Shown piece after piece: positions 5,742 to 15,555 of a stretch of 64,000 nucleotides of DNA. The DNA lies in the IMG/VR virus record IMGVR_UViG_3300028610_000244, positions 1-64,000 of that record; one strand, written 5' to 3'. Positions within the stretch are counted from its first letter, which is position 1. Every line of letters begins with the position of its first letter. The notes beneath the pieces are model-generated. The model did not search any database and had not been told where the DNA came from. It saw only the letters and a list, made by a program, of their open reading frames with translations. The position numbers and the translations under genes are program-made. This stretch comes from a virus.

Positions 5742-5913
5742 TGTATCAGCTCCAAGAACCCCAGGTAGGCGTTTTTCGCCATCGCTACCGCGAGTATGGC
5801 GAAGATGATTGAGAAGACCTTATGCACGCCTTCTCCCTGCCAAGTCTGGGCCGACCTAACCATCGAGTAGATAGTGACAGCGACTGCGATTATGAGGCAC
5901 ATGATTGATTCGG

Positions 5914-6396
5914 TCATGCTAAGTTCTCCGGTCCGAAACTCTTGGGCAGAAGGTCTTTGACGTTCATGCCAGTGGGAGGCAGTGTTGGGTCTTGGCAGAA
6001 AGCCCAGACGATCACTTCCTCGCTGGCTGCGTGTTCGCGGATCAGTTGGCGACAGGCACCGCAGCATGGACACGGCTCGTCGGTGGGTGTCCATACAGTC
6101 ATCTCCATGATGCGTATGTCTGGACCCTCGTGAACGATTGCGTTCGAGATCGCTGTTAGTTCTGCGTGACTCATGCCGTTGTACATCACGTTCTCGACAT
6201 TGCAGCCGCCGTAGATGTTCGCGGTCACTGTGAGCAACGCGGCACCGACATGGAACTTGCTGTAGGGTGCGTAGGCGTTCTTCGCTGCTCGGATCGCTGT
6301 TTCGAGTTGTCGGGCTCGCAGATCGTTGACGTCTTGACCGAAACTACCAGCTCGTCGTGCTTCCCTCACGAAATCTTGTACGTTGATGTCTTTCAT
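5914..6396 (-). CDS. cdd: cytidine deaminase
   Basis: AYAPYSKFHVGAAL, GCNVEN, HAE, PCPCCGACRQ. Confidence 0.93.
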   Translation of the reverse strand: MKDINVQDFVREARRAGSFGQDVNDLRARQLETAIRAAKNAYAPYSKFHVGAALLTVTANIYGGCNVENVMYNGMSHAELTAISNAIVHEGPDIRIMEMTVWTPTDEPCPCCGACRQLIREHAASEEVIVWAFCQDPTLPPTGMNVKDLLPKSFGPENLA

Positions 6397-6415
6397 GTCA
6401 CTATCTCCAGTTCGA

Positions 6416-6748
6416 TTATTGATGGTCCGGGTTATGCTCGGTCTCGTACTCTCTCATCTTCAACGCCTCATCCTCGGTCTTCGCTTCGATGACGATGTGC
6501 TTCTTGTCCACGGTCTTGCCGGCGTCGTTCATAACGTAAACGGTGTAGCCGTGATTGACGTGGATGTATATGCTCGGCGTGCAGGAGACTTCGGTTTCTG
6601 ATTTCCTCAGTTGGTTGACGCTGTTGGTCTTAGTGATTATGGGAAAGACTGCGATGCAGTAGCTGGCTTCGTTCTTCGACCACTTGATATATGAGGCTTC
6701 TACGAGGTACTTGTCTTCGCCGGTTTCATCCACTACTTTGATAATCAT
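6416..6748 (-). CDS. hypothetical protein
   Basis: ORF with GGAG RBS, downstream of the promoter at 6815-6843. Confidence 0.6.
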   Translation of the reverse strand: MIIKVVDETGEDKYLVEASYIKWSKNEASYCIAVFPIITKTNSVNQLRKSETEVSCTPSIYIHVNHGYTVYVMNDAGKTVDKKHIVIEAKTEDEALKMREYETEHNPDHQ

Positions 6749-10162: not shown

Positions 10163-10710
10163 TTATCGGATGTTGTATTGGTTTGAACGAATGGCAAGGC
10201 TCCAGGGTTTGAAATCGTTTGAAAAATTTTGAGATTTGAAAAGCTCTTGGCTTGAGGACGTGCGGGTAGGAGCGGCCCGTCCGATAATAGCATGGGGAAA
10301 GGCCCCGTCCCAGCGGTTATTATCGGACGTTGATGCACGATTTTCGCAGCACAATGCACGATGTTATCGGACGTCAGGCAGCACAGGTTATCGGACCAAG
10401 GCAGGGCGGCTCACGTTATCGGACGTAGGTTATCGGACGTCGTTATTATCGGACCACACCACGTCCGATAACTGAGCGTGACATAACAGGGATTATCGGA
10501 CCAACGTTATCGGACCTCTCTAGGCTCTAGTCCGATAATAAAATCCGGGCTCAACAAACGTCCGATAAGAAGCACGTCCGATAATGTTACGAGGTGCTAC
10601 TGAGTGACGTCCGATAACATATCTGGCGATCAGATACGCATGGTCCGATAATGTTTGCGTGTGCATAGGGAGGAGGTCCGATAATCCGGGGCAGAATTAT
10701 CGGACCGATG
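10163..10710. repeat. array of TTATCGGAC 9-mers in both orientations (left array)
   Basis: About 18 copies by eye (e.g. 10320, 10364, 10388, 10416, 10430, 10446, 10493, 10507; reverse at 10463, 10530, 10560, 10576, 10609, 10643, 10676); no credible ORF. Confidence 0.92.
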
Positions 10711-10754
10711 AGATGATAAGCTGGTAGGTTAAGCCAGCGGTAGGTTATAGGACG

Positions 10755-11999
10755 TCAATAGTATTCGCGTCGGTTGCCGTCCGCGTCGTATCCGTTAGCG
10801 TCAAGCCGGACAACGTCGGACATTGCATAGATTGCCGTATCGTCCGGCAACTGGTTTGCGGCAAACGTGTAAAGGATTGCCGCGAATAATTCCGCGTCGG
10901 TTGTATCGCCTTGCCAATTCTTGCCGATGCTGTTTTCATCGGTTGCATTGTCGGCGAATTCGATATCGTTCGCAAGATCGGCGTCGGCATAGACGACAAC
11001 ATTATAAATATTCAAGTGACTAATTACGTCGGCATTTGCGGCAAGCCAATTTAGTGTCCGGCTATATGTCTCTTGCGTTTCATCAGGCAAACCGATTAGA
11101 ATGTTAGGTATTAGCTTGACATTGCATCGCCTAAGCTTTTCGGTTGCCGCGTCGATTGTCTTTTCCGATGCTGGCTTGTGCATCGCGGCAAGTATAGCGT
11201 CGTTATATGTCTCTATTCCCAATTCGACATAACGAATTCCAGACGCGGACAAAAAATCATCGTCAAGTTTTAGCAATTGTGTTGCTGTAGTCTGCACAAT
11301 AAATCCGTCGAATCCGTCCATGTTGTCAACAAAGTATTGAGACAATAGCGGCAACAACCAAAAATTCTCACATTGTCCGAACGTCTTATCGTTTATGTAG
11401 ACAAGCGGACTATTTAGCCGGGCTATTTCGTCCGCTTGCTGATAGACGTCGGCGATTGACGTCTTGACTACGTCGTTCGGCTGTATACAGAATCGGCACT
11501 TGTGCCCGCAACCAGTAGACAACGTCAATCTTGCAATCGTTTTGGCACCAACAAAACTGGAATAGTCAATACCCGTCCGATAATCAGTGCCGAGCTTATC
11601 GCAGCAATCCCGCACAGAATCGCACCAAATAACGTTCGGTAGGTCCGATAAGTTTTCCCGGTCACAATATCCGCCGACAATCACCTTGCCGCTAAAACCG
11701 TCGGCAATCGTTCGGATTAAATGCCAATTGCAATCCAAAGCGGAAAATGCAAGGATATCATAGTCGGCCTGTTTGGCTTGTACGTCGGCGATTGACCGGG
11801 CAAACGTTGTCCGTGCATCGGGAAAATTGCGTTTCATTTCCGCTTGCCAAACAGGAATTTCCCAGACAGGACCGAGGCGATTATATCCCGGCAACGTCCG
11901 ATAAAGTTTATCGTAATATTCGGTTGCCTGTTTGTTCTCGTTTCGGTTTAGCAATCCGCTATAAAATTGCACCAACAGAATTTTCGGTCTTGTTCTCAT
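10755..11999 (-). CDS. radical SAM protein (B12-binding/class B-like architecture)
   Basis: STGCGHKCRFC (CxxxCxxC), YINDKTF, ELGIET, ILIGLPDET, upstream IVGG; start at MRTRPK after the conserved leader. Confidence 0.88.
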   Translation of the reverse strand: MRTRPKILLVQFYSGLLNRNENKQATEYYDKLYRTLPGYNRLGPVWEIPVWQAEMKRNFPDARTTFARSIADVQAKQADYDILAFSALDCNWHLIRTIADGFSGKVIVGGYCDRENLSDLPNVIWCDSVRDCCDKLGTDYRTGIDYSSFVGAKTIARLTLSTGCGHKCRFCIQPNDVVKTSIADVYQQADEIARLNSPLVYINDKTFGQCENFWLLPLLSQYFVDNMDGFDGFIVQTTATQLLKLDDDFLSASGIRYVELGIETYNDAILAAMHKPASEKTIDAATEKLRRCNVKLIPNILIGLPDETQETYSRTLNWLAANADVISHLNIYNVVVYADADLANDIEFADNATDENSIGKNWQGDTTDAELFAAILYTFAANQLPDDTAIYAMSDVVRLDANGYDADGNRREYY

Positions 12000-12429
12000 T
12001 TCTCTTGTCCCCGTTTTGCTCTTGTTCGGTTTACGTTTTGCGTTATGGCGTCCGTCTGGTCTCGTGTTGGACATTCACAAGACGCCATAACACAAACGGT
12101 AAACTTGTGGGGACAAGTTAGCTATTCTTGTCTGCCGGTTTGCGTTTGTTTCCTTTTGCCGTCAATCCGTTTTGGTTTTTCGCCGTTATGTTTCCGTATC
12201 CGTCTTTTGTTGCATTTGCCGCGTCGAAATTTCTGTTTTGCTTGTCCATTTTGGTTTGTCCCCGTAAATTGTTTCGGTTTGCTAAGCTAACAAAGTGCGA
12301 CGTATGCCGCAATACTGATAATAATTACCGGATACCATTTTGTTTTCCAAGCTTTATACTTTTCGATTAGAGTATACATTTTTGTTTTCCCCGTTTGTTC
12401 TTGCCGTTTGCTTGTCCCTCACTACTTAA

Positions 12430-12457
12430 AGTATACACTATATCCGGCAAGATGCAA
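12430..12457 (-). promoter_or_regulatory. phage repeated promoter (TTTGCAT class)
   Basis: TTGCAT-16nt-TATACTTTAAG with AT-rich upstream element. Confidence 0.8.
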
Positions 12458-12471
12458 ATAGAAAATAAAAT

Positions 12472-13104
12472 TTATTCTTGCATAAAGGCAAAACAAGGCG
12501 TTTCACAAAAGATCGACCTGTATACCGACACAAAGCTTTTCGGATTCTTGCCGGATTCTCGCCGTATCGCATACCATAGTAAAGCCTGATAATTTGCTGG
12601 CTTTAAGCCTTGCCGTTTGGCGTCGGCCTGTATTCGCTTTTCTAGTCGGTTGTATAGCCTTGCCGTCAATTTCTTTTCTGGTATGCCATACGCTTGCAAA
12701 ATCCATGTGTCAATTGTGACCGCGTCAAGATTGCCTTTTAGATTCTCGGCAAACCGCGAAACCTTGGGACCGCTTATCGGACGTCCTTGTAGCGACCGAA
12801 TAACGTTTGTTAAATGTGCGGGCATACACTTAGCCAACAGATCGGCGAAACGGTCCGGGTTTAGTTTCCTGTCGATATACGCTTGCAATAGCCTTGCCGA
12901 TTGACGCCAATTGCGTTTGACGGATTGACGCGGCGATGTTGACGCCAAAATGTCAACAAACAGACGCCAATTGTCCCCGTATAATTCTTGTATCAAGTTT
13001 TTGGCGTCTGTATACCATTGCAAGGCTTTTCTATCCGCGACGTCTGGCTTGACGCGGCAGCGTAGTCTTATGTTATCGGACGTCGTTTTCGTTTTGGTTC
13101 TCAT
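12472..13104 (-). CDS. HhH DNA-glycosylase-fold-like phage protein
   Basis: WY...LASTSPRQSVKRN, GPKVSRFAENL, VTIDTW, QALLW pattern; start at MRTKTK after the conserved leader. Confidence 0.55.
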   Translation of the reverse strand: MRTKTKTTSDNIRLRCRVKPDVADRKALQWYTDAKNLIQELYGDNWRLFVDILASTSPRQSVKRNWRQSARLLQAYIDRKLNPDRFADLLAKCMPAHLTNVIRSLQGRPISGPKVSRFAENLKGNLDAVTIDTWILQAYGIPEKKLTARLYNRLEKRIQADAKRQGLKPANYQALLWYAIRRESGKNPKSFVSVYRSIFCETPCFAFMQE

Positions 13105-13372
13105 TGTCGTTTGTCCCCGTCCCCGTTTTGTCGTCGAAATGTTGCTGTATTGTGTCCCAAAGATTTTCGAGAAATTCGTTTTTGTCCGCGTCGTATTGCT
13201 CGTAACCGTTATCGGACCCGTGTTCGACGTCTGGATATAGCGGCAAAATCTCGGCATTATAGCGTTTGTACTCATCGGCCAAAAATGCCATTAAATCGGA
13301 TTGACGTTTTCCCTTGTTTGTATGGTCAATTGGATTGCCGAGTTTAACATCGGCGTAGTTTTTGTCAGACAT
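13073..13372 (-). CDS. hypothetical acidic protein
   Basis: Island ORF; shares the island codon bias. Confidence 0.6.
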   Translation of the reverse strand: MSDKNYADVKLGNPIDHTNKGKRQSDLMAFLADEYKRYNAEILPLYPDVEHGSDNGYEQYDADKNEFLENLWDTIQQHFDDKTGTGTNDNENQNENDVR

Positions 13373-13382
13373 TATCGGCCCC

Positions 13383-13532
13383 TTAATTGTCCTGCATTAC
13401 ACGAATTGCATCGGCAAAATTCTTTTCGGTTTGCTGGCTTACTTTGTTGGCGAATTTGACCGCTTGCGATACCAAAACCAGATAAAAAATTACAATCAAC
13501 ATGCCGCCGATTAGATAAGATTTAATGCTCAT
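13383..13532 (-). CDS. small single-TM protein
   Basis: MSIKSYLIGGMLIVIFYLVLV hydrophobic stretch; follows promoter and conserved leader. Confidence 0.6.
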   Translation of the reverse strand: MSIKSYLIGGMLIVIFYLVLVSQAVKFANKVSQQTEKNFADAIRVMQDN

Positions 13533-13584
13533 TTTTCTTGTCCCCGTTTTGCTCTTGTTCGTTTGCTTGTCCCTCACTACTTAA

Positions 13585-13612
13585 AGTATACGCTATAATT
13601 CCGCCGATGCAA
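13585..13612 (-). promoter_or_regulatory. phage repeated promoter (TTTGCAT class)
   Basis: TTGCAT-16nt-TATACTTTAAG. Confidence 0.8.
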
Positions 13613-13615
13613 ATT

Positions 13616-13789
13616 TTATTTCCAAGGAAATAATCTTTTTTCGTGTTTCTTCCATGCAAACAACAAAGCAAACCTTTTCCGGCTAAAATCGGTTTGTGGT
13701 GAAACACCTAAACTTTCTATATCGGTGCCGAGTTGCCTGATTCTCTTGTCTATTCTTGCCGCTATTTTTTCCGCTTTCTTGATTCTCAT
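13616..13789 (-). CDS. small basic protein (57 aa, not in ORF track)
   Basis: MRIKKAEKIAARIDKR... directly follows the conserved ACGGGGACAAGAAAA leader. Confidence 0.55.
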   Translation of the reverse strand: MRIKKAEKIAARIDKRIRQLGTDIESLGVSPQTDFSRKRFALLFAWKKHEKRLFPWK

Positions 13790-13982
13790 TTTTCTTGTCC
13801 CCGTTTTGCTTTACTTAAATATTCCGGCACTGGCTTTTGAATTCCGCAATTTTGTTGGCTTTGTGGTACGCAAAATCCGCATTGCATCGGCAAAACCTTT
13901 TGCAGAGCTGGTAGATTTTGACGAACCACATGTTAGCAGCATCGACAACAAGCTTTTCTTACGTCCCATAATATCCTCCGCA

Positions 13983-14312
13983 CTATATGTTTTCCGTTAT
14001 GCAAATAGAATCTGGCATAATTACGCAATTCTCGGCATAAAATTTGACTTGATCGGCAGCGTCCGATAATGTTTCAAACGTGTGCGTTTCCGCTTGTCCA
14101 TTTACTGCAATAATCAATTCGTATGTTTTCCGCCGTTTTAATGGTATGGTCAATCGGCGTTTTGATTCGCAAGCCAATACTTTCAGACGTCCGCCGTGCA
14201 TTTTCTCAAAACGTCCGATAACTGTTATCGGGTCTTTTTCCCTTGTGCAATATGTTGTTGTGCCGGTCGTTCGGCGTTTGTCGTTTCTCTCATAATCTAT
14301 TTTGTATCTCAT
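13983..14312 (-). CDS. hypothetical protein (first gene of the island)
   Basis: Follows promoter 14355-14382 and the conserved leader. Confidence 0.65.
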   Translation of the reverse strand: MRYKIDYERNDKRRTTGTTTYCTREKDPITVIGRFEKMHGGRLKVLACESKRRLTIPLKRRKTYELIIAVNGQAETHTFETLSDAADQVKFYAENCVIMPDSICITENI

Positions 14313-14354
14313 TTGCCTTGTCCCCGTTTTGCTCTTGTTCGTTTCACTACTGAA

Positions 14355-14382
14355 AGTATACGCTACAATTCAGCCGATGCAA
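14355..14382 (-). promoter_or_regulatory. phage repeated promoter (TTTGCAT class)
   Basis: TTGCAT-16nt-TATACTTTCAG. Confidence 0.78.
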
Positions 14383-14470
14383 ATAGAAAATAAAATTTAT
14401 TTTGCGTTTGGCGTCGGCGGTTTTGTGTCGTATGCTTTGCGTATACGATGATATTTTGTGGACGCTTTAC

Positions 14471-14918
14471 GTCCGATAATAATCGGCGGGCTTTTTCCCG
14501 CGACGTCCGATAAGGACCACGTCCGATAAGGAGGGCGGTCTACCTACTCGGAATTCGTCCGATAACGGCACGAGGTCCAGGTCCGATAAAAAATATATTA
14601 TCGGCGGAACTGCCGGGTCCGATAAGTGTCTAAAGTAATGGCACTGGAGGCAAAAGCATGTGACTTATCGGCGTGGTCCGATAATATCGAGATCGCGGAA
14701 TTCTGCGGCGGCGGTTATTATCGGACGAGGCCAATAATGTCGCGGGTTCTGCGTCGTGAGGCCAGGGATTACCGGACGTGTCCGATAATATCGAAACTGG
14801 TCTCTGAACCGGAATTGGATATTATCGGCAGCGTCCGGTAATGTGTCCAGGCTGGTTATCGGACGCTGTGGAGAAAATCAGTTATCGGACGTGTGGGAGC
14901 TGGTTAGTTTTATCGGAC
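14471..14918. repeat. array of TTATCGGAC 9-mers in both orientations (right array)
   Basis: About 12 perfect plus about 5 near-perfect copies by eye; non-coding. Confidence 0.92.
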
Positions 14919-14926
14919 CAAAGGTC

Positions 14927-15063
14927 CAACCCACCGTTTACTTTTGGGCACGAAAAAGGCAACCCACCGTTTAGTTTTGGTCGAAAAAGGCAACCCACCC
15001 TTTGATTTTTGCCTCGAAAAAGGCAACCCACCGTTCATTTATTTTCCTTGAGTCCAACCCACC
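14927..15063 (+). repeat. five phased CAACCCACC direct repeats (iteron-like)
   Basis: Copies at 14927, 14960, 14991, 15024, 15055 (spacing 33/31/33/31) separated by A/T tracts; AT-rich stretch follows at about 15280-15520. Confidence 0.88.
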
Positions 15064-15555
15064 CTTTGTTTCAAGGTAATGTCACTAGGCCCCAGGTCAA
15101 GCAAATGTCACTCTATATGTCACCACCTTCGCCCAGGATTCAAGTGCTCTGAGTTTTTGAGACAGCGGCCAAAGTATAGGGCGGCGGGAGATTTCGACCC
15201 TCTTTGTCATGCCCTCGGACAATGCCCAGGAAAGTTGCTGGCACCGGCCATAAGTTGTAAAAGGTGTCGATGAGTAAGTCCTGGTTATTACTACCCTTAG
15301 TATTCTTTTCATATTATACATATTAAATTTATAGTTTGAGTCTAAAGAAATTTGACTATCTGTGACGTCCTGGGTATGAGAAATGTTAAGAATATGGTGA
15401 AACACTATGTTCTTCATGTTATTAAACCTAAGCCCAATGTCACTCAACACTTGTATGGTAGCACCTTTTACCAGTTCAAAACCGTATGAATATGTTCCTG
15501 AATATCTAACTCTAGTCCTCATAGTGACTTGCTCCCAGACGTCGCCAACAACTTT

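What the first reader, a model, noticed from the sequence alone, without database searches (positions are those of the whole stretch)
10755..13104. Radical SAM enzyme plus glycosylase-fold protein as the cargo of the protected island
Seen: the only two enzyme-like genes in the island are a B12/class-B-like radical SAM protein and a protein with an HhH-glycosylase-like VTIDxW motif. Both are downstream of strong promoters. Established: phage DNA hypermodification pathways use radical SAM enzymes and glycosylase-fold enzymes. Inference: they may form an immediate-early DNA-modifying or host-modification-removing pair, or a SAM/nucleotide-sabotaging anti-defence module.
Basis: inference. Interest (0 to 1): 0.7.

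Follow-up and report, generated by a model that had tools for sequence, protein, structure and literature searches.

The report
Stand-alone phage radical SAM and glycosylase-like genes
Two early genes of an uncultured 98-kb phage encode a radical SAM enzyme with a vitamin-B12-type domain layout and a protein with a DNA-glycosylase fold. In most other phages these same two modules sit inside giant multi-enzyme "polyvalent" proteins, so they are probably infection-start effectors, and what they act on is unknown.

Summary
Gene 10755-11999 (-) encodes a 414-aa radical SAM enzyme with an intact CX3CX2C motif. Its two-domain model (Rossmann-like N-domain plus barrel) matches AprD4, MgmA, CysS, MiaB and TsrM at Z 20-25. 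Gene 12472-13104 (-) encodes a 210-aa DUF7178 protein. Its model matches only HhH-GPD glycosylases at the top (Thermotoga Ogg, Z 12.5), and it keeps an invariant Lys...18...Asp pair. No other island ORF hits Pfam.

The radical SAM family is almost confined to uncultured viruses. In about 80% of its representatives it is an internal domain of 1,000-5,100-aa proteins that carry ART-PolyVal, LPD23/38 and InPase, the marks of phage polyvalent proteins. About half of these giants also carry a DUF7178-like domain, usually C-terminal to the radical SAM domain, and about ten loci have the two as neighbouring solo genes. The link is not obligate: complete relatives of this phage keep DUF7178 in the same box-flanked island without the radical SAM gene.

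The known thymidine-hypermodification route is not supported: no thymidylate-synthase homologue, and no similarity to M6 gp51 or gp53.

The scan met this module before on other DNA (e1-5795979). This window adds the split, promoter-driven form. Substrates remain unknown.

The parts
10755..11999 (-). Radical SAM gene, 414 aa (P0003). It has a Rossmann-like (B12-binding-like) N-domain, a CX3CX2C radical SAM barrel and a short helical C-terminus. The longest ORF extends to 12074, but the leader and the source's gene call favour the ATG at 11999.
12472..13104 (-). DUF7178 gene, 210 aa (P0065). Ogg2-like HhH-GPD fold with invariant Lys114 and Asp132 (SGPKV...VTIDTW).
12375..12480 (-). Promoter-plus-leader cassette of the unit that ends with the radical SAM gene (TTTGCA-17-TATACT at 12458-12430).
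13528..13633 (-). Promoter-plus-leader cassette of the unit that ends with the DUF7178 gene (hexamers at 13613-13585).
14305..14410 (-). First copy of the same promoter cassette, at the head of the island (hexamers at 14383-14355).
12287..12379 (-). 30-aa hydrophobic ORF, first in the radical SAM unit. No family match was sought because of its size.
12118..12249 (-). 43-aa ORF, second in the radical SAM unit. No Pfam match.
13383..13532 (-). 49-aa hydrophobic ORF, first in the DUF7178 unit. No Pfam match.
13073..13372 (-). 99-aa acidic ORF, second in the DUF7178 unit; it overlaps the DUF7178 start. No Pfam match.
14471..14918 (.). Upstream array of 12 TATCGGAC/GTCCGATA boxes bordering the island.
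   Evidence: the same bracketing is seen in relatives L082, L083 and L085; in the partial locus L086 the boxes lie within and downstream of the gene
10279..10705 (.). Downstream array of 17 TATCGGAC/GTCCGATA boxes, just past the radical SAM stop codon.

Best explanation
The two genes are stand-alone copies of two enzyme modules from the effector repertoire that many tailed phages string together in giant 'polyvalent' proteins. In this phage they are made as separate proteins from a repeated sigma-70-type promoter cassette. They lie in a 4-kb island flanked by box arrays and depleted of GAAG/GAGG.

DUF7178 is a distant HhH-GPD (Ogg2-like) enzyme. It keeps the Lys and Asp of bifunctional glycosylase/AP-lyases at the canonical 18-residue spacing. 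It most likely flips a base out of DNA and cuts or exchanges it. In this phage lineage it is the conserved cargo of the island.

The radical SAM protein has the class-B-like layout: a B12-binding-like domain plus a [4Fe-4S]/SAM barrel. It most likely carries out a radical methylation or another C-H functionalisation on a host or phage macromolecule. In this lineage it is an accessory addition to the island.

Shown here: the folds, the motifs, the polyvalent-protein context, and the frequent but non-obligate linkage of the two modules.

Inferred: early timing, a nucleic-acid target, a host-takeover or counter-defence role, and that the two act independently or only loosely together.
For: Folds and motifs:
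- Searches give the radical SAM architecture. All 73 viral copies keep CX3CX2C.
- Searches give the HhH-GPD fold.
- The only PDB sequence hit of the DUF7178 profile is MjOgg (E 0.15), and it aligns tiDvW with IIDRH.
- A K...D-x-[W/H] pattern is kept in 66 of 69 diverse domains.

Polyvalent-protein context:
- 48 of 73 IMG/VR copies lie in stop-free frames of 1,000 aa or more. 120 of the 150 best cluster representatives are 1,000-5,102 aa.
- Pfam finds ART-PolyVal, LPD23, LPD38, InPase, GNAT, His_Phos_1 and DUF6782 in these giants.
- BFVD places the DUF7178 fold in ART-PolyVal and LPD proteins.

Linkage:
- Searches show the two domains fused in one protein.
- Searches show them as neighbouring solo genes.

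Lineage:
- Relatives L082, L083 and L085 share many genes with this phage and keep DUF7178 between the same box arrays; all of L082-L086 lack the radical SAM gene in the stretches examined.

Virus restriction of the radical SAM family:
- 8 hits in 185,579 prokaryote species genomes.
- None in 50,697 GenBank phage records.

Early position elsewhere:
- DUF7178 is the third gene from the right end of cluster-A mycobacteriophages, and some records annotate it 'glycosylase'.
Against: - There is no biochemical evidence for either activity.
- Sequence-level membership in HhH-GPD is not detectable: no Pfam HhH-GPD hit, and hhalign against four EndoIII sequences found nothing.
- Z 12.5 for an all-helical protein lies near the range the tool warns may reflect a common arrangement.
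- Cobalamin binding is untested, and Pfam B12-binding does not hit.
- Recurrent adjacency, including overlapping solo genes in L065 and L074, and the preferred order (radical SAM before DUF7178 in 49 of 56 giants) could mean real cooperation rather than independence.
- I could not measure how often DUF7178 occurs in polyvalent proteins that lack the radical SAM domain, so the specificity of the link is unquantified.
- Expression timing is inferred from promoter-like repeats only.
Confidence: 0.55

Rival explanations
1. Coupled DNA base-editing pair. The HhH-GPD-like protein flips a target base in duplex DNA (incoming phage DNA or host DNA). The radical SAM enzyme then performs radical chemistry on that base or on the product. 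The result would be a post-replicative DNA modification, or the removal of one, that protects the phage or cripples the host.
For: - Fusion in one protein in about half of the giants, mostly with the radical SAM domain first.
- Immediately adjacent or overlapping solo genes in L064, L065 and L074, and close neighbours in L009, L069, L073, L077 and L126.
- A precedent exists in phage M6: an amino-acid:DNA transferase followed by a radical SAM isomerase acting on DNA (PMC11472151).
- The transferase structure 8z2m is a weak structural neighbour of DUF7178 (Z 6.0).
Against: - Each module occurs without the other in complete genomes.
- Spacing varies from 46 to 1,342 residues, and 7 of 56 giants have the reverse order.
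- No similarity to M6 gp53 or gp51.
- No thymidylate-synthase or ThyX homologue and no TGT in the complete genome; a 5-hmdU kinase search was inconclusive because its control did not ring.
Confidence: 0.2
2. RNA-directed retooling. The radical SAM enzyme modifies host tRNA or rRNA, as its structural neighbours MiaB, MtaB, RimO and Elp3 do, to bias translation. DUF7178 acts on a nucleotide or on RNA rather than on DNA, as the nucleotide glycosylase QNG1 does.
For: - MiaB, MtaB and RimO are among the best structural matches (Z about 22).
- QNG1/DUF2419 appears among the DUF7178 matches (Z 6.9).
- The phage carries RtcB. An unchecked first-reader note (e1-6007280) also describes tRNAs there. Both point to an RNA-centred conflict.
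Against: - The N-domain has no conserved cysteines, so it lacks the auxiliary cluster that defines methylthiotransferases, and there is no TRAM domain.
- The best DUF7178 matches are DNA glycosylases with an HhH DNA-binding hairpin.
Confidence: 0.1
3. Phage DNA repair module. An Ogg-like glycosylase removes oxidised bases, and a radical SAM enzyme reverses photodamage by direct repair, like spore photoproduct lyase.
For: - The best structural matches of DUF7178 are 8-oxoguanine glycosylases.
- Spore photoproduct lyase appears as a marginal sequence match to the cluster-binding region (E about 0.8).
Against: - The context is conflict effectors (ART-PolyVal, LPD and InPase in the same proteins), not repair genes.
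- The radical SAM architecture (B12-like N-domain) differs from that of spore photoproduct lyase.
- Placement behind early-type promoters in a motif-purged island argues for a takeover role.
Confidence: 0.07
4. Metabolite sabotage. The radical SAM enzyme depletes SAM by uncoupled cleavage, and DUF7178 hydrolyses a nucleotide signal or cofactor. Together they would starve SAM-dependent restriction or BREX, or block nucleotide-signalling defences.
For: - Polyvalent proteins are proposed to carry signal-degrading enzymes (PMC7824862).
- InPase and His_Phos_1 domains occur in the same giants.
Against: - Radical SAM enzymes turn over slowly and need a reductant, so they are poor SAM sinks compared with known phage SAM lyases (general knowledge).
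- Strong conservation of a large two-domain substrate-binding architecture argues for a specific substrate.
Confidence: 0.05

Closest known systems
Two-domain radical SAM enzymes with a B12-binding-like N-domain: class B enzymes TsrM, OxsB, TokK, CysS and MgmA, and the cobalamin-free AprD4
   Same: CX3CX2C cluster motif. Rossmann-like N-domain followed by a partial TIM barrel. Full-length structural alignment at Z 20-25. The nearest named language-model cluster carries Pfam B12-binding.
   Different: Only 13-16% identity. Pfam B12-binding does not hit. All NCBIfam matches are far below their cut-offs. The family is virus-restricted, is mostly embedded in giant proteins, and its substrate and cofactor are unknown.
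Ogg2-type HhH-GPD DNA glycosylase/AP-lyases (Thermotoga Tm1821, M. jannaschii and Sulfolobus Ogg)
   Same: Same fold over about 166 of 210 residues (Z 12.5). A helix-hairpin-helix is followed by a conserved Asp, with a conserved Lys 18 residues upstream. The D-x-W/H motif is aligned with IIDRH.
   Different: No significant sequence similarity (E 0.15 at best). It has its own conserved motifs (LLAATSPR, QAxxW). It is a phage early gene or a polyvalent-protein domain. Its substrate base is unknown.
Phage polyvalent proteins (Iyer, Burroughs, Anand, de Souza, Aravind 2017, PMC5512222)
   Same: Homologues of both proteins are domains of 1,000-5,100-aa phage proteins that carry ART-PolyVal, LPD23, LPD38 and InPase.
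   Different: In this window the modules are separate genes behind their own promoters. The 2017 survey text contains neither 'radical' nor 'glycosylase', so these two modules appear not to have been described there.
Thymidine hypermodification cluster of phage M6 (gp51 amino-acid:DNA transferase, gp52 PLP enzyme, gp53 radical SAM isomerase)
   Same: It combines a base-flipping helical enzyme with a radical SAM enzyme that acts on DNA (PMC11472151). The PaMx11 homologue of gp51 is a weak fold neighbour of DUF7178 (Z 6.0).
   Different: No sequence similarity to gp53 or gp51. gp53 is a photolyase/SplB-type radical SAM enzyme without a B12-like domain (by its annotation). This genome has no thymidylate-synthase homologue; a 5-hmdU kinase search found nothing but was uncontrolled.

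Membership tests
Radical SAM superfamily | CX3CX2C motif binding the [4Fe-4S] cluster, and a partial TIM barrel | tested here: met
   GCGHKCRFC is present, and C164, C168 and C171 are invariant in 26 homologues. Pfam PF04055 scores 41.3 bits against a cut-off of 29.5. The barrel matches at Z 14-25.
Class B (cobalamin-dependent) radical SAM enzymes | N-terminal Rossmann-like cobalamin-binding domain | tested here: inconclusive
   The fold is present and aligns with TsrM, OxsB, TokK, CysS and MgmA. It aligns equally well with cobalamin-free AprD4 and with MiaB. Pfam B12-binding does not hit at E <= 1.
Class B (cobalamin-dependent) radical SAM enzymes | Bound cobalamin used in catalysis | not testable with these tools
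   Needs cofactor analysis of purified protein.
Methylthiotransferases (MiaB/RimO/MtaB) | Three conserved Cys in the N-domain for the auxiliary cluster, and a C-terminal TRAM domain | tested here: not met
   There is no conserved Cys before residue 164 in alignment A1, and no TRAM domain. NCBIfam scores of 23-34 bits compare with cut-offs of 251-357.
HhH-GPD DNA glycosylase superfamily | Two-lobed helical fold with a helix-hairpin-helix | tested here: met
   Z 12.5 (rmsd 3.7, 166 residues aligned) to 3n0u. All 23 matches with Z >= 5 belong to this superfamily. The Atlas's own model gives TM 0.61 to an Ogg-HhH cluster.
HhH-GPD DNA glycosylase superfamily | Catalytic Asp about 20 residues after the hairpin; a Lys nucleophile in bifunctional members | tested here: met
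   K114 and D132 are invariant in A2 and 18 residues apart. D132 aligns with the Asp of IIDRH in MjOgg. The pattern is kept in 66 of 69 diverse domains. Catalytic use is not shown.
HhH-GPD DNA glycosylase superfamily | Detectable sequence homology (Pfam PF00730 or PF22175) | tested here: not met
   No Pfam hit at E <= 1. The profile against PDB sequences gives only MjOgg at E 0.15. hhalign against four EndoIII sequences gives probability about 0.
Phage polyvalent proteins | A single giant multi-domain protein that combines several effector domains | tested here: not met
   In this window the two are separate genes of 414 and 210 aa, and no other ORF of the genome matches the giants. Homologues elsewhere do meet the feature.
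Thymidine hypermodification pathway (5-hmdU kinase / amino-acid:DNA transferase / radical SAM isomerase) | dUMP hydroxymethylase (thymidylate-synthase homologue) in the genome | tested here: not met
   No PF00303 or PF02511 match in the complete 97,868-bp genome, and the controls rang.
Thymidine hypermodification pathway (5-hmdU kinase / amino-acid:DNA transferase / radical SAM isomerase) | 5-hmdU DNA kinase | tested here: inconclusive
   No PF18723 match, but nothing rang in the controls either.
Thymidine hypermodification pathway (5-hmdU kinase / amino-acid:DNA transferase / radical SAM isomerase) | Homology to M6 gp51 (transferase) and gp53 (radical SAM isomerase) | tested here: not met
   BLASTP of P0003 against gp53 gives E 0.12, and the alignment does not run through the cluster motif. 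hhalign of A2 against gp51 gives probability 0.2. tblastn of P0003 against all GenBank phages finds nothing.

The most novel reading that the evidence does not exclude
The radical SAM module and the HhH-GPD-like module together form a DNA base-editing device that is either delivered with the genome or made first. The glycosylase-fold domain flips a specific base in duplex DNA, and the radical SAM domain modifies it by radical chemistry. This would be a post-replicative DNA modification, or the erasure of a host mark, that needs no modified nucleotide pool, in a virus-only enzyme family never studied at the bench.
Probability: 0.18. Interest if true: 0.85.

Novelty: new variant of a known kind. 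Interest (0 to 1): 0.6.

Why it matters
If the reading is right, two uncharacterised enzyme families join the set of tools phages use at the very start of infection.

The first is a virus-restricted radical SAM clade of about 360 clusters at 50% identity (E <= 1e-30). The second is an Ogg-like glycosylase-fold family that is widespread in phage early regions.

A radical SAM enzyme inside proteins thought to travel in the virion is unexpected, because these enzymes depend on an oxygen-sensitive iron-sulfur cluster and a reductant.

The stand-alone copies in this phage are small and separately expressed. They are a much easier entry point for biochemistry than the 3,000-5,000-residue giants. DUF7178 also has homologues in cultured cluster-A mycobacteriophages, where knockouts are routine.

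Either enzyme could turn out to be a new DNA or RNA modifying or demodifying activity.

Tried and rejected
- Near-identical DNA in GenBank phages: none.
- Single-sequence scans of IMG/VR with either protein found nothing. Profile scans worked.
The closest homologue contigs (65-72% identity), on which both genes appear to co-reside judging by shared contig lengths, could therefore not be read.
- PHROGs has no family for the radical SAM protein.
- hhalign of DUF7178 against a small EndoIII alignment, and against M6 gp51, found nothing.
- A Pfam Ogg-HhH search of five bacterial genomes, meant to supply Ogg2 sequences for a profile comparison, found none.
- A conserved accessory domain next to the radical SAM module in the giants was sought and not found. 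The flanks fall into many small clusters.
- Other ORFs of this genome do not match the giant proteins, so the island is not a fragmented polyvalent gene.
- I considered and set aside the methylthiotransferase reading (no N-domain cysteines), the M6-type hypermodification reading (no pathway genes, no homology) and the 7-deazaguanine reading (no TGT/DpdA).
- Full-text searches found no paper that describes a radical SAM or glycosylase-fold domain in polyvalent proteins, and none that mentions DUF7178. That is absence from the searchable library only.
Full report
**What the window is.** The window is the first 64 kb of a complete 97,868-bp uncultured virus record. IMG/VR classes it as having direct terminal repeats. 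The exact repeat is 144 bp. Most genes run on the - strand. The genome encodes a family-A DNA polymerase, a primase, a Dda-like helicase, clamp-loader proteins and RtcB. No near relative exists among 50,697 GenBank phage records.

**Check of the observation: the radical SAM gene.**
- The longest ORF is 10755-12074.
- The ATG at 11999 is preceded by the leader AAAACGGGGACAAG that also precedes six other starts in the island. It is also the start of the 414-aa gene call held in the protein collection.
- The protein hits Pfam Radical_SAM (E 2.3e-10) and carries CX3CX2C.
- In an alignment of 26 homologues, the three cysteines and a set of SAM-barrel motifs are invariant (YINDKTFGQ, GFIxQTT, ELGIETxN, IPNxxxGLPxE). 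The N-terminal 150 residues have their own invariant motifs (WExPxW, FSxLDxN, GGY) but no conserved cysteine.
- The AlphaFold model (pLDDT 88.5) is a Rossmann-like domain followed by the barrel.
- It aligns over 320-360 residues with AprD4 (Z 25.2), MgmA (24.9), CysS (23.6), MiaB/RimO/MtaB (about 22), OxsB (21) and TsrM (20).
- 'Class-B-like' is therefore correct as architecture. Whether it binds cobalamin cannot be told, because AprD4 has the same layout without cobalamin.

**Check of the observation: the DUF7178 gene.**
- The gene at 12472-13104 gives 210 aa and hits Pfam DUF7178 and phrog_3842.
- Its model (pLDDT 88, all helical) finds only HhH-GPD enzymes at the top:
  - Foldseek ranks Ogg2, OGG1 and AGOG first (E 0.02, TM 0.54).
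  - The exhaustive aligner gives Z 12.5 to Thermotoga Ogg, and the next 22 matches (Z 5.5-8.2) are Mag1, OGG1, AGOG, MagIII, EndoIII, AlkA, MutY, NTHL1, ROS1, the queuine-salvage glycosylase QNG1 and the PaMx11 amino-acid:DNA transferase.
  - The Atlas's independent model gives TM 0.61 to an Ogg-HhH cluster.
- Lys114 and Asp132 are invariant in 20 homologues and lie 18 residues apart (SGPKVxRFAxNLxG...VTIDxW). From memory, this is the spacing of the catalytic pair in EndoIII and Ogg2.
- The only PDB sequence hit of the family profile is MjOgg (E 0.15), with tiDvW aligned to IIDRH.
- Across 69 diverse DUF7178-like domains the Asp is followed by W or H at +2 (IDxW, IDRH, IDTH), and the Lys is kept in 66.
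- Sequence-level homology is otherwise undetectable. I call it a distant HhH-GPD member with about 85% confidence.

**Check of the observation: the rest of the island.**
- None of ten further ORFs in and beside the island hits Pfam.
- Three near-identical promoter-plus-leader cassettes start three short units.
- Each enzyme gene is the third ORF of its unit, after a hydrophobic mini-ORF and a small hydrophilic ORF.

**The main new point: both proteins are modules of polyvalent proteins.**
- A profile scan of IMG/VR gave 73 loci with the radical SAM family. In 48 of them the domain lies inside a stop-free frame of 1,000 to nearly 5,000 codons.
- An exhaustive profile search of 1.84 billion cluster representatives gave 363 proteins at E <= 1e-30. 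Of the best 150, 120 are 1,000-5,102 aa with the domain internal.
- Pfam finds ART-PolyVal, LPD23, LPD38, InPase, GNAT, His_Phos_1 and a DUF6782 metallopeptidase in these giants. These are the signature of the phage polyvalent proteins of Iyer et al. 2017, which are proposed to be injected with the DNA (PMC5512222; PMC7824862).
- The text of that survey contains neither 'radical' nor 'glycosylase'. I found no paper on DUF7178 or on a radical SAM domain in such proteins.
- The family is almost absent from cellular genomes (8 loci in 185,579 species) and from cultured phages.
- The flanks of the domain in the giants are not conserved, so it is a self-contained, shuffled module.

**How tightly the two are linked: evidence for linkage.**
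- With an iterated DUF7178 profile, 34 of 73 radical SAM loci carry the domain within 8 kb, mostly in the same giant. Six more carry it elsewhere on the contig.
- In the unbiased representative set, 56 of 120 giants have both. DUF7178 lies after the radical SAM domain in 49 and before it in 7, at distances of 46 to 1,342 residues.
- Among solo forms, about ten loci from distant phages (28-54% identity) have the two genes within 3 kb. They are overlapping or adjacent in L064, L065 and L074.

**How tightly the two are linked: evidence against an obligate pair.**
- None of 42 DUF7178 loci found independently has the radical SAM gene nearby.
- Three complete genomes with a 45-60% identical DUF7178 lack the radical SAM gene altogether.
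- About half of the near-complete radical SAM phages show no DUF7178.
- DUF7178 also occurs in giants without the radical SAM domain (L098, L119, L122; BFVD).
- The link is real but facultative.

**The lineage of this phage.**
- Loci L082-L086 come from relatives that share many genes at 40-73% identity.
- In L082, L083 and L085, DUF7178 sits between two arrays of the same TATCGGAC boxes that flank the island here. None of L082-L086 shows a radical SAM gene.
- DUF7178 is therefore the conserved cargo of a conserved island. The radical SAM gene is an addition in this phage and its closest metagenomic kin (65-72% identity).
- The added gene has nevertheless been brought under the island's sequence constraint. 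It has one GAAG/GAGG/CTTC/CCTC site in 1,245 bp, against a median of 16 per kb in 72 homologous segments.

**What is excluded.**
- The complete genome has no thymidylate-synthase or ThyX homologue and no TGT/DpdA.
- A 5-hmdU kinase search found nothing, but it lacked a working control.
- The radical SAM protein shows no similarity to M6 gp53, and DUF7178 shows none to M6 gp51.
- The characterised thymidine and 7-deazaguanine hypermodification routes therefore do not apply.
- The lack of N-domain cysteines rules out a methylthiotransferase.

**Most likely mechanism.** I read the two as infection-start effectors taken from the polyvalent-protein repertoire.
- DUF7178 is a base-flipping glycosylase/AP-lyase-type or base-exchange enzyme acting on DNA.
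- The radical SAM protein is a radical methylase or another C-H-functionalising enzyme with an unknown macromolecular substrate.
- They are loosely associated rather than an obligate pair (confidence about 0.55).
- The coupled base-editing reading stays open at about 0.2. RNA retooling, DNA repair and metabolite sabotage are less likely.

**Earlier notes from this scan.**
- A follow-up on another genome (e1-5795979) reached the same view of the giant-protein module and its link to a glycosylase-like domain. I arrived at it independently before reading that note.
- Notes e1-6007262 and e1-6007263 describe the motif purge and the boxes in this same stretch. I re-measured both.

**Verdict.** These are stand-alone members of two uncharacterised, largely phage-specific enzyme families in a known kind of system. 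The biochemistry is open, and clear bench tests are available.

Noticed in passing
window 10745-14460: GAAG, GAGG, CTTC and CCTC together occur 5 times, against 33 expected from the local dinucleotide content (ratio 0.15). The flanks are at 1.1-1.2. Both strands are purged, and GGAG/CTCC are purged too. The DUF7178 regions of relatives show a weaker dip: 0.31 in L085, 0.36 in L086 and 0.55 in L082.
   Followed up: partly
window 10279-10705 and 14471-14918; L082, L083, L085, L086: 37 of the window's 45 TATCGGAC/GTCCGATA boxes lie in or around the island. 17 follow the radical SAM stop codon, 12 lie before the first promoter, and 8 are inside the island. Arrays of the same box bracket the DUF7178 gene in L082, L083 and L085, so the island structure is conserved; L086 (a partial locus) has boxes within and downstream of the gene.
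   Followed up: partly
window 12005-14318: The leader ACGGGGACAA occurs 7 times in the 98-kb genome. All 7 are in the island on the - strand; six lie just before start codons, and one (12971) is inside the DUF7178 coding sequence. It stands in for a GGAG-type ribosome-binding site.
   Followed up: partly
window 14930-15070: Four tandem copies of AAACGGTGGGTTGCCTTTTTCG-like units lie just upstream of the box array. Their role is unknown.
   Followed up: no
L009, L010, L039, L062-L065 versus the giant-protein loci: Solo copies of the radical SAM gene have the lowest density of GAAG/GAGG/CTTC/CCTC among homologues (3-8 per kb, against a median of 16). This was not corrected for base composition.
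   Followed up: no
L144 (Tunturiibacter phage Tunturi_3, PP885686.1) 5893-6489: The 198-aa gene annotated 'portal protein' (gp111) is a DUF7178 homologue (31.5% identity over 72% of the query). The annotation is probably wrong.
   Followed up: no
L145 (Mycobacterium phage MK4) 1655-2230, and about 44 other mycobacteriophage records: DUF7178 homologues are the third gene from the right genome end in cluster-A mycobacteriophages. A few records call the gene 'glycosylase'. These are cultured phages in which the family could be tested.
   Followed up: partly
L058 2673-14363: In this giant the radical SAM domain matches in two pieces (profile positions 4-307 and 303-385) separated by about 140 residues. 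This suggests an insertion in the barrel.
   Followed up: no
L017 4242-14312; L024 3423-15083: Giants that carry the radical SAM domain also carry a histidine-phosphatase plus GNAT pair (L017) or an inorganic pyrophosphatase plus ART-PolyVal (L024). This shows how varied the companion effectors are.
   Followed up: no
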